From Polyangiales bacterium (GTDB lineage Bacteria > Myxococcota_A > Polyangia > Polyangiales > Houyiibacteriaceae), in the NCBI GenBank assembly GCA_045106895.1, contig JBGCFM010000097.1, forward strand, positions 12,605 to 76,604: a stretch of DNA of 64,000 bases. Reading direction: 5' to 3'. Shown piece by piece: positions 27,001 through 30,000 of the stretch (position 1 is its first letter; each line of letters begins with the position of its first letter). A program made the position numbers.

Positions 27001-30000
27001 CAGACGTTCATCGCTCGTTTCGTTCCAGACAACTCCACCGGCGATAGGCAATATGAGTACAACCTCCGCGGGGCAGACTCATCGCTCGCTTACTGTGGCC
27101 ATGATTTCTCGCGCTTTGTCTCCCTCGCTTGCACCAAGGGTACATCGTACGGCGGCGCACGAATCTACGAGCCGGGGTCGCTCCACACCGGCGGCTGGGT
27201 CTACTTCAATGACGATTCATCTTTGGTGTTGGGTCTCACGATTCGCAGCGACCGGGCACTCAAGACGCTCCAGAGACTCGTGGGCGCCATCGGATGTGGA
27301 TGGGGCTATATCGCGGGTGATGTACCCCCATCCTCATCGAAACACTCCTTCGTTGAAACGTGCCGGCAGGGCTCAAAGGGCTTCGTCGTTCGCCCGCGCC
27401 ACGGCACGTGACTCGGACGGTTCAGCTCAGCGACGGACGCGGCGTGCTCTTTGGCGGTTCCGCGCTTGTTCAAATCGTTCGGCACACGAGCGTTCATCGC
27501 ACGAAAGCGGCCAAGCGAATTTCCATCGCCAAAAAAATCGGCAACTCCCCGACCACCCAGCAGCTTTTCACACGCGCTCCCGCGCACTGGCCCGCGCACT
27601 GCGCTGACCCTCGTCTGAGGTACAGCGCGACATGGCAGCGATGCTCGAAGTCATGAGCGGAATGCAGAAGAGGTCACCCTGTTGCGGTACGCCGTGCTCT
27701 TTCACAACGCGATGCACCGCCGCGAATGAGCGCCTTGAAAGTCGTGGGACGAAGAACGGAGCGACGCGAGTAGGCCTGTTCTGAGCAAGTTGCGGAGCAT
27801 GTTTCGTGATACGCGTTTGGGAATGCACCCAGCTGCAGTCGTCGCGTTAACGCTTGGCTCCTTCGCCGTTGTTCAGGCGGCGGCCAATCGGCGAATCTCC
27901 ACCGAATGGGGCCTCGCTCCGACGATCTTCCTCAATGGGGGCGTCGTAATCCTGATGTGCGTGGCGTTCTACGTGGCTGCTCGACGCGGCTGGGTGGACG
28001 CCATCGGCAGTGAGGCACGCCTCTCGCAAATGCAGCTCTGGTGGTTGCTGCCTGGCGTGCTTGGTTTTCTTCTCATCACGGGGTTGCCGTGGGCCGTTGG
28101 TAAGATCGGAGCTACACAAGTATTTGTCGGCGTTGTGTTCGCTCAGATGGCTACAAGCCTCATATGGGACCGCGTCGCCGAAGGTCTTGAGCTGTCGTGG
28201 CAACGTGTGCTGGGCGTGTGCCTATGCGCAGCGGGTGTCGCGTTCGCATCGCGGGGCTGACACGAACCGGACGACGAAGCGGTCTTTGCAACGTCCTTAC
28301 TGGCTCGTCAACTGCGGGCACGCATTGGTCTCTTTGTACGTCTTCATGGCGCGAACCCGGGCTCGTCCGCAGCTAACAAAGCATGCCTCCATCGCGACTT
28401 GCGGGAGCGCGAGTAAGCCTTCATTCTTAGGGCAGCCAGGACGACCTGTGCGCTCACACCATTCTTCGGGACGACCCGAAATTTCCCCTGGAGAATGTCA
28501 TGCGAACAACCGCCGACCGAGTACGCCACGCGATTTCTTTTGAGCTGAGCGGACTGCTCATCGTCATGTCGGCGGGCATCCTCCTCTTCAACAAACCCGC
28601 CGAAGATGTCGGCGCCGTCGCCATGGTCGCGTCACTTATCGCGGCGGTCTGGGCTTACGCCTACAACTACCTCTTCGATGTGGCCCTCCTGCGTCTTCAG
28701 GGCAAAACGCAGAAGACGATGACCCAGCGCGTGGTTCACGCCGTGGCCTTTGAGGCCAGCCTGCTGCTTATGATGCTGCCCTTCGTCGCGTGGCACTTGG
28801 ACGTCTCGTTGATGGACGCGTTCCTCATGGATGCCGCCCTCGCGAGCTTCTACATTGTGTACGCCTTCGTCTTCAACTGGGCCTACGATCACCAGTTCCC
28901 CGTCGCGGACGAATCCGCCAGCGAGGCCGCGCCTGCCTTCGACATGGGCGCTGCTTGTCCGGCGTGAGCTCCTCTTCTTCAGCGAGGGGGCTGGACTAGG
29001 TCGCTCACTTTGCGCGACGCTACGACGATGAATCGCTGGATCGCGCCTTGTGCCCTTACGCTTCTCATCGCTTGCGAGGGTTCGTGCGGCGGCGCACCTG
29101 AAGCCTCGTCGTCTACGGGGCCCGAGAGCGCGCAGATTCCTTCCGAAGCGCGAAACGAGTCCACCCAAGCACCCGCCGAAGCCCCGAACGAGACGGCTGA
29201 AACGGGCGAGGCGACTGAGGCCGAGGCGACCGAAGCCGACGAGCGTCAGTCGGGCTACGATGCGGACGCACATCAGCGCTACCTGGAGCTGCTCGCAGAA
29301 GGTCGGCGTGCGACACGTGCACGTCGATACCCCGACGGGATCCGCGCCTTAGAGGGTGCACTCGAGGTCGACCCCGGCGATGGCCCCGCACTTGGCGAAC
29401 TCGGCTGGGCGCTCTTCCACGCGGGTCGTCTCGACGAGGCTTCCGCGCGTACGCAGGAAGCGCTGGCGTCGACGTACGACTCGCGGCGACGCGCAATGTT
29501 GCTTTACAATATGGGTCGCATCGCGGAGGCGTCGAACGGCCCCGAGGAGGCCGCAGCAAACCTCTACCAAGCGTCGTTGATGCTGCGCCCGTCGACCGCC
29601 GTGGCCGACCGTCTGCGCGCCAATGGTGGCGACGCGGACTTCACCGACGAGACCCGTTCGTTGGCCCAGAGACTCTCCACTTCCGTCGGCTCGCTCATGG
29701 ATCAAGAGTCGCCCTGCCCTGAGCCGGCCGCGGGCGATGAAGAAGATGAGGGCGACGACGACGGCGACGACTATGACTACGAAGAAGACATGGAATGTGA
29801 CGTCGTTCTCGTCGAAGGAAGCTCGCCGGAGCTGCAGTGGATGTTAGTGACGACCACGACGGACGCCGGTTCCACAGAGACGGTCTACTCACTGTGGGCG
29901 CGCACGCGCACCGGTCTCTACGAAATCGGCGCCCTCACGCGCGACTGGCGCGGCATGTGGGGCGGCGAGATGGTGAGCGGCAGCGTCGAGCTTACCTTGG

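What a model noticed while it worked through the whole genome (the two positions that open the first line are those of the whole stretch)
28433..28967. Guanidine-II riboswitch in front of a PACE-family transporter
A guanidine-II (mini-ykkC) riboswitch sits 21 nt upstream of g06831, a 155-aa PACE/BTP-family transporter that is almost absent from Myxococcota, and the same riboswitch precedes most of its homologs in Alpha- and Gammaproteobacteria (Rhizobium, Agrobacterium, Devosia, Microvirga, Paracoccaceae, Thalassospira). Boldest reading: this PACE clade is a guanidinium exporter, a further guanidine-efflux family beside Gdx (SMR) and MepA (MATE), and guanidinium export is the native chemistry behind the family's puzzling recognition of the bis-biguanide chlorhexidine. 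New would be a physiological substrate and regulator for part of the PACE family.
Evidence so far: rna.tsv: Guanidine-II RF01068 C286:41037-41083 (+), 38.5 bits (cut 32); g06831 41104-41571 (+) Pfam BTP x2, NCBIfam 'PACE efflux transporter', best Swiss-Prot 'short-chain diamines transporter'. BTP family: 5 of 1654 Myxococcota, 7728 of 189784 Bacteria (relatives.tsv, call 124). Of 7 loci with homologs (44-83% identity; call 128), 6 keep upstream DNA; Rfam scan finds Guanidine-II 20-70 nt upstream of the gene in 3 of these 6 (L105 36.8 bits, L106 33.6 bits, L103 29.0 bits, just under the cut) and in this genome. Wider test: an alignment of six homologs (A10, call 199) pulled 401 relatives from GTDB species genomes, the best 80 kept with 250 nt upstream; the first 40 of these 80 were scanned [...]
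(Added by a program. Inside this text positions count along the whole contig: contig position 12,605 is position 1 of the stretch shown here. "Call 12" and the like, gene names such as g00115 and contig names such as C1 are that model's own, and its searches are not shown. The text may have been shortened before it was handed on; [...] marks where a part breaks off. The agent that wrote the report below was given it as the finding of a first reader that could run no searches.)

Follow-up and report, generated by a model that had tools for sequence, protein, structure and literature searches.

The report
Guanidine riboswitch controlling a PACE transporter
A small RNA switch that senses guanidine sits directly in front of a small PACE-family membrane pump, which suggests that this branch of the family pumps guanidine out of the cell; the pairing appears in a 2007 data table but has never been tested.

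Summary
A Guanidine-II aptamer (28433-28479, 38.5 bits against a cut-off of 32) is the only copy in the 7.7-Mb genome. It ends 20 nt before the ATG of a 155-aa PACE/BTP gene (28500-28967).

Of the 80 closest homolog loci, 53 carry the aptamer above Rfam's cut-off and 17 more just below it, always on the same strand. In 67 of these 70 the aptamer ends 14-23 nt before the start codon.

The association is clade-specific. In an unselected sample of 66 PACE loci only 2 have the aptamer. The AceI-type and PCE-type (chlorhexidine) pumps lie across a well-supported branch, and many of them have a divergent LysR regulator instead.

The own genome shows no SMR/Gdx gene and no Guanidine-I match. No catabolic gene recurs downstream of the riboswitch-controlled PACE genes.

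Best reading (about 0.65): a translational ON switch drives a guanidinium exporter of a PACE subclade.

Novelty is reduced. Weinberg 2007's supplement already lists 11 mini-ykkC elements in front of BTP genes. I found no text that draws the functional conclusion, and transport is untested. The family-wide chlorhexidine reading is not supported.

The parts
28433..28479 (+). Guanidine-II (mini-ykkC) aptamer, whole
   Evidence: Rfam RF01068 at 38.5 bits (GA 32), E 3.1e-5; sole copy in the genome; own model R1 gives 43 bits.
28437..28448 (+). P1 hairpin, CAGG-ACGA-CCTG. It can be extended to 28435-28451 with one bulged U.
   Evidence: Sequence; hairpin scan; MFE fold. The P1 variant CAGCCAGGACGACCTG is identical to that of Granulosicoccus locus L008.
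28449..28464 (+). Linker between P1 and P2 (16 nt). Its 3' part belongs to the predicted anti-SD strand.
28465..28480 (+). P2 hairpin, TTCGGG-ACGA-CCCGAA
   Evidence: The GGGACGRCCC core is invariant in 54 of 54 aligned aptamers.
28460..28470 (+). Predicted anti-SD strand (CAUUCUUCGGG), which overlaps the 5' strand of P2
   Evidence: The MFE of 28425-28515 pairs it over 11 bp with 28487-28497 (-29.4 kcal/mol, z -2.41). This is a prediction only.
28487..28497 (+). SD strand of the predicted OFF helix. It holds the Shine-Dalgarno GGAG at 28490-28493.
28500..28967 (+). PACE/BTP transporter gene, 155 aa (P0001), four predicted TM helices
   Evidence: AlphaFold2 model with pLDDT 84.9 and helices at 4-30, 34-67, 74-100 and 104-132.

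Best explanation
This is a self-contained guanidine detoxification unit. The leader of the mRNA holds a Guanidine-II aptamer. Without ligand, the linker plus the 5' strand of P2 is predicted to pair with the Shine-Dalgarno region and block translation initiation. When guanidinium accumulates, it binds the two ACGA loops, P1 and P2 kiss, P2 is locked, the SD is freed and the PACE protein is translated. The protein belongs to a distinct PACE subclade and most likely acts as a proton-coupled guanidinium exporter, the job done elsewhere by SMR-family Gdx. What is shown: the aptamer, its position, its conservation with the gene across many genomes, and its restriction to one clade. What is inferred: ligand response in this leader, the OFF helix, the direction of transport and the substrate.
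For: The aptamer is real and unique in the genome. All ligand-contacting positions are intact: GGACGRCC and GGGACGRCCC are invariant in 54 of 54 aligned aptamers. The stems covary: 98.4% of cells are paired, 3 pairs change on both sides, and 0 of 500 shuffles reach the score.

The association holds widely. Of the 80 best homolog loci, 53 score at or above the cut-off and 17 are sub-threshold hits at the same place and strand. Spacing is 14-23 nt in 67 of 70. In 13 metagenome loci, 6 are above the Rfam cut-off and 8 are found by my own model.

The association is clade-specific. Only 2 of 66 unselected PACE loci have the aptamer. In the tree, an 86-row clade holds 70 riboswitch genes, while the 43-row AceI/PCE side holds none. 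That split has 99/92 support in the careful tree.

The company is guanidine-specific. In 151 alphaproteobacterial genomes the other Guanidine-II elements precede DUF1989 (6), SMR (4) and Na_Ca_ex (1) genes.

The gene stands alone, which points to export rather than catabolism. Among 48 downstream ORFs no family recurs more than twice and none is a carboxylase or hydrolase.

There are signs of replacement of Gdx. The own genome (96% complete) shows no PF00893 gene and no Guanidine-I match; the Guanidine-III search also found nothing, but its control rang nowhere, so that blank is uninformative. Across 12 genomes with a riboswitch-PACE gene, no SMR gene was seen behind a Guanidine-II element, although one extra aptamer in G401 has an unidentified downstream gene. 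By comparison, 4 of 11 other alphaproteobacterial genomes that have the riboswitch have an SMR gene behind it.

The predicted OFF helix is mutually exclusive with P2. The family is known as proton-coupled cation exporters that work as dimers with an essential TM1 Glu (PMC9045395, passages). E15 and E85 are invariant here.
Against: No transport or ligand-response data exist for any member of this clade. The one alphaproteobacterial PACE protein tested (Roseovarius ROS217_23162) was not detectably expressed in E. coli and gave no phenotype (PMC4337561, passages).

Ten of the 80 loci lack the aptamer, among them a nested Halomonadaceae subclade (4 loci) and a Psychrobacter locus, so close relatives can do without it. 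Riboswitch presence changes at least 8 times on the 82-row tree.

The riboswitch clade is not cleanly separated from LysR-regulated near relatives.

The complementarity with SMR rests on small counts of related genomes. It covers only Guanidine-II, and three downstream genes in the alphaproteobacterial sample (one of them in G401) could not be identified.

SD sequestration in MFE folds is heterogeneous across relatives: the SD is mostly paired in 38 of 57 evaluable leaders, with different partners. For the P. aeruginosa switch, direct SD sequestration was reported to be dispensable (PMC10351892).

Guanidine riboswitches also control importers and enzymes, so regulation alone does not fix the direction of transport.
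Confidence: 0.65

Rival explanations
1. The switch senses guanidine, but the pump's real substrate is a related cationic nitrogen compound, such as methyl- or aminoguanidine, agmatine, or a short diamine as reported for AceI. Free guanidinium would then be only the inducer or a minor substrate.
For: PACE members are promiscuous cation exporters with biocide substrates (PMC4337561). The clade differs from other PACE proteins at only a few positions: R2, D6, R9, S13, F30, K72, Y118.
Against: Riboswitch-controlled SMR pumps proved highly selective for guanidinium (review PMC12186494, passages). The aptamer's binding nucleotides are the canonical ones. The diamine and chlorhexidine pumps are in the other clade and use LysR regulators.
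Confidence: 0.2
2. The PACE protein imports guanidine for use as a nitrogen source.
For: Guanidine riboswitches also control uptake and assimilation genes (PMC12186494). One riboswitch-PACE genome (G1521) also has a Guanidine-II element in front of a biotin carboxylase, which looks like a guanidine/urea carboxylase.
Against: No catabolic gene is linked to the PACE gene in 48 loci. The characterised PACE proteins are exporters. The own genome has no other guanidine riboswitch match.
Confidence: 0.06
3. In this myxobacterial genome the element is an inherited passenger of a horizontally acquired gene and no longer regulates anything useful.
For: The gene family is nearly absent from the phylum (2 of 401). 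Decayed aptamers exist in some relatives: L009, L067, L054, and an ACGC loop in L022, L050 and L079.
Against: Here the aptamer scores 38.5 bits with both loops and stems intact and has normal spacing to an SD and ATG. The ORF is intact. Relatives at 77-92% identity exist in metagenomes.
Confidence: 0.06

Closest known systems
Guanidine-II riboswitch in front of gdx/sugE (SMR-family guanidinium exporters, e.g. in E. coli and P. aeruginosa)
   Same: Same aptamer class. Same position just upstream of the SD of a single small four-helix cation/H+ exporter gene. Same translational ON logic. SMR genes behind Guanidine-II were found in my own sample (L153, L162, L163, L164).
   Different: The transporter is a PACE/BTP protein (PF05232), not an SMR protein (PF00893). 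P0001 has no SMR match. The function of Gdx has been shown biochemically; this one has not.
mini-ykkC elements upstream of 'BTP (pfam05232)' genes listed in the supplement of Weinberg et al. 2007 (PMC1950547)
   Same: The same RNA-gene pairing: 11 entries (Oba x2, Asp, Rsp, Rba, Ssp x2, Atu x2, Ogr, Rnu).
   Different: It is only a table row from before the ligand and the PACE family were known. No function was proposed. There is no myxobacterial example.
AceI/AceR of Acinetobacter and PCE-type PACE pumps (chlorhexidine efflux)
   Same: Same protein family: two BTP repeats, the TM1 Glu, and about 145 aa.
   Different: They are in a different clade. P0001 scores 87.8 against the AceI cut-off of 180 and 112.1 against the PCE cut-off of 165. 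In my sample they are regulated by a divergent LysR gene, not a riboswitch.
Guanidine-IV (mepA) riboswitch with MATE and PnuC-like transporters (Lenkeit 2020, PMC7736828)
   Same: The same inference: a transporter family becomes a candidate guanidine exporter because a guanidine riboswitch controls it.
   Different: Different riboswitch class (transcriptional) and different transporter families. BTP/PACE does not appear in that paper's text or in its held supplement.

Membership tests
Guanidine-II riboswitch (RF01068) | Score at or above Rfam's gathering score over the full model | tested here: met
   38.5 bits against 32, model positions 1-48.
Guanidine-II riboswitch (RF01068) | Two hairpins, each with an ACGR tetraloop closed by G-C pairs, joined by a short variable linker | tested here: met
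   CAGG-ACGA-CCTG and TTCGGG-ACGA-CCCGAA with a 16-nt linker.
Guanidine-II riboswitch (RF01068) | Lies in a 5' leader just upstream of the SD and start codon (translational class) | tested here: met
   20 nt to the ATG, with GGAG at 28490-28493. Relatives show 14-23 nt in 67 of 70.
Guanidine-II riboswitch (RF01068) | Stems supported by covariation among relatives | tested here: met
   Alignment A2: 98.4% paired, 3 pairs changed on both sides, 0 of 500 shuffles as high, and slid controls much lower. Most pairs are invariant, so the support comes from the outer pairs.
Guanidine-II riboswitch (RF01068) | Binds guanidinium and switches expression on | not testable with these tools
   Needs in-line probing, ITC or a reporter assay.
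PACE family (Pfam BTP PF05232; NCBIfam NF033664) | Two tandem BTP repeats, about 140-155 aa, above the curated cut-offs | tested here: met
   PF05232 in 2 stretches at 136.7 bits; NF033664 at 122 bits against 80.
PACE family (Pfam BTP PF05232; NCBIfam NF033664) | Four transmembrane helices with a conserved Glu in TM1 | tested here: met
   The AF2 model has helices at 4-30, 34-67, 74-100 and 104-132. E15 is invariant in all groups and E85 nearly so.
PACE family (Pfam BTP PF05232; NCBIfam NF033664) | Proton-coupled efflux as a dimer | not tested
   Known for AceI and PA2880 (PMC9045395). No complex prediction or assay was done here.
AceI family (NF033663 equivalog) | Score at or above 180 bits | tested here: not met
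   87.8 bits. The AceI-type locus L120 scores 258.9 and lies in the other clade.
AceI family (NF033663 equivalog) | Divergent LysR-type regulator (AceR-like) next to the gene | tested here: not met
   The upstream neighbour is a same-strand YdcZ-like gene, and no LysR domain was found in the ORFs tested around the gene. L120 and 25 other riboswitch-free loci do have a LysR domain.
Gdx (SMR-family guanidinium exporter) | SMR domain PF00893 | tested here: not met
   Only BTP is found in P0001. So it may work like Gdx, but it is not a member.

The most novel reading that the evidence does not exclude
A subclade of the PACE family is a further, independently evolved family of guanidinium exporters beside SMR-Gdx. 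It travels together with its own Guanidine-II switch as a compact one-gene module between Alpha-, Beta- and Gammaproteobacteria and into Myxococcota, and it stands in for Gdx where Gdx is missing. A few clade-specific residues near the essential TM1 Glu (R2, D6, R9, S13, plus K72 and Y118) would set the selectivity. That would give the first physiological substrate and regulator for this part of the family, and a natural starting point for asking why other PACE pumps recognise the bis-biguanide chlorhexidine.
Probability: 0.55. Interest if true: 0.65.

Novelty: new variant of a known kind. Interest (0 to 1): 0.5.

Why it matters
PACE pumps were discovered through resistance to synthetic biocides, and their authors stated that the natural substrates must be something else (PMC4337561). 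A riboswitch of known ligand in front of one whole subclade gives a concrete and cheap hypothesis to test: guanidinium/H+ antiport. If it holds, guanidine efflux has arisen in yet another small-transporter family. The list of guanidine-handling genes used to read genomes would grow. The contrast between riboswitch-controlled and LysR-controlled PACE clades would offer a natural experiment on how substrate selectivity changes. For this genome, it would be the only recognisable guanidine defence.

Tried and rejected
- RNA evidence: no RNA holder is listed for 28300-29000, so expression and the 5' end could not be examined.
- Solved structures: no PDB relative by sequence (0 at E<=1) and none by Foldseek with the AF2 model (0 at E<=0.001).
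- Promoter scan of 28200-29100: no sigma-70-like site, and one terminator-like site on the minus strand inside the ORF, which is within chance.
- Base composition: GC is 0.60 at the gene against 0.58-0.70 around it, so composition shows no sign of import.
- A common expression platform across relatives: crude MFE folds give heterogeneous SD partners, so I describe the OFF helix for the window only.
- Earlier notes of this scan: none found.
- Literature: Sherlock 2017 (PMC5340285), Nelson 2017 (PMC5360189) and Kermani 2018 (PMC5866581) are not held. Their gene-association figures may mention BTP/PACE.
- The supplement of Lenkeit 2020 has no BTP/pfam05232 term.
- For three Guanidine-II elements of the alphaproteobacterial sample (the second one in L155, L156, L160), my ORF picks had no Pfam match, so those genes stay unidentified.
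- Read laying on contigs does not list differences near the ends of a piece, so I could not use it to measure conservation of the first 31 nt of the aptamer.
- No complex (dimer) prediction was run, because the claim does not depend on it.
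Full report
**1. The observation**

The sequence at 28433-28479 holds two hairpins with ACGA loops: CAGG-ACGA-CCTG at 28437-28448 and TTCGGG-ACGA-CCCGAA at 28465-28480, joined by a 16-nt linker. 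Rfam's Guanidine-II model matches over its full length at 38.5 bits (gathering score 32, E 3.1e-5 for the 5-kb scan). It is the only match in the 7.7-Mb assembly (E 1.1e-5).

Twenty nucleotides further on, after GGAG at 28490-28493, starts an ORF (28500-28967) of 155 aa. The ORF has two BTP repeats (PF05232, 136.7 bits). It reaches NCBIfam's generic PACE model (122 bits against 80) but not the AceI equivalog (87.8 against 180) or the PCE model (112.1 against 165). An AlphaFold2 model built on 51 homologs (pLDDT 84.9) shows four long helices.

BTP genes were found in 2 of 401 sampled genomes of the phylum, this one included. The other one is a different PACE type without the RNA.

**2. How general the pairing is**

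An alignment of 14 homologs pulled 459 relatives from one-genome-per-species contigs, of which the best 80 were kept. I scanned all 80 with Rfam at E<=1.

- 53 loci have Guanidine-II at or above the cut-off.
- 17 more have a sub-threshold match (25.8-31.8 bits) at the same place and strand.
- 10 have none, and one of these (L061) keeps only 15 nt of upstream DNA.

In 67 of the 70 loci the aptamer ends 14-23 nt before the start codon (median 19; the window has 20).

In the 54 aligned aptamers the GGACGRCC and GGGACGRCCC cores are invariant. The outer stem pairs covary: 98.4% of cells are paired, 3 pairs change on both sides, 0 of 500 shuffles reach the covariation score, and slid controls are far lower.

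Thirteen further relatives from metagenome contigs gave 6 matches above the Rfam cut-off and 8 with my own model R1.

Among the misses:
- Some look like decayed or variant switches: L009; L067; L054 with an ACCA loop; L022, L050 and L079 with an ACGC loop in P2; L072 with two ACGG hairpins that Rfam does not score.
- Four Halomonadaceae loci and a Psychrobacter locus show nothing.

**3. The pairing is clade-specific**

To avoid choosing loci by similarity to the query, I searched PF05232 in evenly drawn genomes:
- 10 of 401 Alphaproteobacteria have it.
- 12 of 400 Gammaproteobacteria have it.
- 46 of 301 genomes of the order that holds Psychrobacter have it.

I fetched 66 loci from these hits. 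Model R1, run with filters off, finds the aptamer in 2 of the 66 (L088, L131). Rfam run on 20 of the 66 finds the same two.

In a tree of 151 proteins (three loci without a usable start and one truncated ORF were dropped):
- An 86-row clade (SH-aLRT 88) holds 70 riboswitch genes, 7 genes without a riboswitch, and 9 of unknown state.
- A 43-row clade holds no riboswitch gene.
- The 22 rows between them hold 3.

A careful tree of 82 chosen rows separates the 18 rows of the riboswitch-free side with support 99/92, and in 100% of bootstrap trees. It does not cleanly separate the riboswitch core from its near relatives. Riboswitch presence needs at least 8 changes on this tree.

NCBIfam labels place the AceI type (L120 at 258.9 bits; L110 at 177.4) and the PCE type (L100, L107, L108, L109, L111, L112 at 193-200 bits) on the riboswitch-free side.

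Of 49 divergent upstream ORFs tested next to PACE genes (48 of them riboswitch-free; L088 carries the aptamer and its ORF had no match), 26 carry a LysR HTH domain. These include AceI-type and PCE-type loci and several near relatives of the riboswitch clade. The family therefore uses two alternative sensors, a LysR protein or the guanidine RNA.

Positions that set the riboswitch clade apart from the other side are R2, D6, R9, S13, F30, G68, K72, Y118 and F133-P134. R7, E15, N56, D60, R77, H80, E85, D111 and D130 are family-wide.

**4. Evidence on function**

*Company.* In 151 alphaproteobacterial genomes Guanidine-II occurs in 12, with 15 copies. The downstream genes are DUF1989 (6), SMR (4), Na_Ca_ex (1), PACE (1) and 3 that I could not identify. 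This is the known guanidine regulon.

*Independence.* Downstream of 48 riboswitch-PACE genes no protein family recurs more than twice and none is a guanidine-degrading enzyme. This argues for detoxification rather than uptake for catabolism.

*Replacement.* The own genome (96% complete) shows no SMR-family gene and no Guanidine-I match. The Guanidine-III search also found nothing, but its control rang nowhere, so that blank says little.
- In ten other riboswitch-PACE genomes, eight have the PACE aptamer as their only Guanidine-II.
- The two extra copies precede a biotin carboxylase and an ATP-synthase a-subunit gene.
- G401 has two extra copies, one before a Na_Ca_ex gene; the gene behind the other is unidentified.
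- So no SMR gene was seen behind Guanidine-II in 12 riboswitch-PACE genomes (one downstream gene unidentified), against 4 of 11 other alphaproteobacterial genomes with the switch.

The counts are small and the genomes are related, so this is a hint, not a test.

*Mechanism of the switch.* The MFE fold of 28425-28515 keeps P1. It pairs 28460-28470 (linker plus the 5' strand of P2) with 28487-28497 (which includes the SD) in an 11-bp helix that excludes P2 (-29.4 kcal/mol, z -2.41). Ligand-driven kissing of P1 and P2 would free the SD. This resembles, but is not identical to, the P0a/P0b model of the P. aeruginosa switch (PMC10351892, passages). Across relatives the predicted SD partner varies, so only the principle is likely to be general.

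**5. Origin**

The protein's closest relatives (77-92% identity) are unnamed metagenome proteins. Together with them it forms a starred clade whose sister is a Granulosicoccus gene (L008; 100/93 for the six-row set). L008 also shares the window's unusual P1 variant CAGCCAGGACGACCTG, whereas most alphaproteobacterial copies read GCGAGGACGACCTC followed by CCCC. So the RNA and the gene appear to move together.

In contigs of two public runs from different studies, similarity to the window starts at 28433/28434, the first base of the aptamer, and the sequence before it is unlike the window. In one of them the gene is at least 99% identical. Base composition gives no signal of import.

**6. What is already known**

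Weinberg et al. 2007 (PMC1950547) list in their supplement 11 mini-ykkC elements followed by 'BTP (pfam05232)', among them two Agrobacterium records (supplement passages). The main text speaks only of a gene set like that of ykkC.

I found no paper in the held library that links PACE or BTP with guanidine or a riboswitch in its text. The searches were:
- 'guanidine' + 'riboswitch' + 'PACE family'
- 'guanidinium' + 'proteobacterial antimicrobial compound efflux'
- 'riboswitch' + the same phrase
- 'PACE' + 'guanidine riboswitch' + 'transporter'

Their hits are reviews with unrelated mentions; two were checked by passages. The 2025 review of guanidine biology names SMR/Gdx and MepA/MATE exporters and has no occurrence of chlorhexidine, AceI or BTP (passages). 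Lenkeit 2020 proposes MATE and PnuC families as new exporters by the same logic and does not mention BTP in the text or the held supplement.

Hassan 2015 tested one alphaproteobacterial PACE protein (Roseovarius ROS217_23162). It was not detectably expressed and gave no resistance. The authors state that the biocides are unlikely to be the physiological substrates (passages).

Sherlock 2017, Nelson 2017 and Kermani 2018 could not be read. The report that short diamines are AceI's natural substrates is recalled, not seen.

**7. Verdict**

The feature is real and the riboswitch is almost certainly functional. The functional conclusion, a guanidinium exporter of the PACE family, is well supported by context but untested, and I did not find it in print. 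The wider claim about chlorhexidine and the whole family is not supported. I rate it a new variant of a known kind, with interest 0.5.

Noticed in passing
window 28433-28434 (runs X3, X6): In Logan contigs of two runs from different studies, similarity to the window begins at the first base of the aptamer, and the 86-255 letters before it are unlike the window. In X3 the gene is at least 99% identical (4 differences in 567 nt). This suggests a recombination or insertion boundary at the 5' edge of the riboswitch-gene unit.
   Followed up: partly
window 27790-28260 (+): The gene directly upstream, ending 173 nt before the aptamer, encodes a 156-aa DMT_YdcZ protein (PF04657, 58.7 bits), another small putative exporter. 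It lies outside the riboswitch's control.
   Followed up: no
L166 1201-1247 (-) and ORF 432-1181 (-): In genome G1527 a second Guanidine-II element (40.2 bits) lies 19 nt upstream of a gene for an ATP synthase A chain (PF00119, 221.9 bits). This is not one of the usual guanidine-associated gene classes.
   Followed up: partly
L022, L050, L079 (about 935-985): Three Paracoccaceae/Rhodobacterales loci have a normal P1 but a P2 loop that reads ACGC instead of ACGR (Rfam 25.8-29.0 bits). This is either a tolerated variant or decay shared by one subclade.
   Followed up: no
L026, L028, L049, L052: A Halomonadaceae subclade nested inside the riboswitch clade has lost the aptamer. No LysR domain was found in the divergent ORFs tested for three of them (L026, L049, L052; L028 gave no candidate ORF). 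Its regulation is unknown.
   Followed up: partly
L053 631-870; L088 1501-1573; L131 310-383: tRNA genes lie immediately upstream of three riboswitch-PACE units, a frequent landmark of integration sites.
   Followed up: no
L155 51-98 and ORF 115-1278: In the Agrobacterium genome G401 another Guanidine-II element precedes a Na_Ca_ex (ChaA-like) gene. Weinberg 2007 also lists ChaA after mini-ykkC. This is another untested candidate guanidine transporter.
   Followed up: no
window 30512-32122 (-): A 536-aa ORF combines an N-terminal WGR domain, a weak BRCT match and pentapeptide repeats.
   Followed up: no
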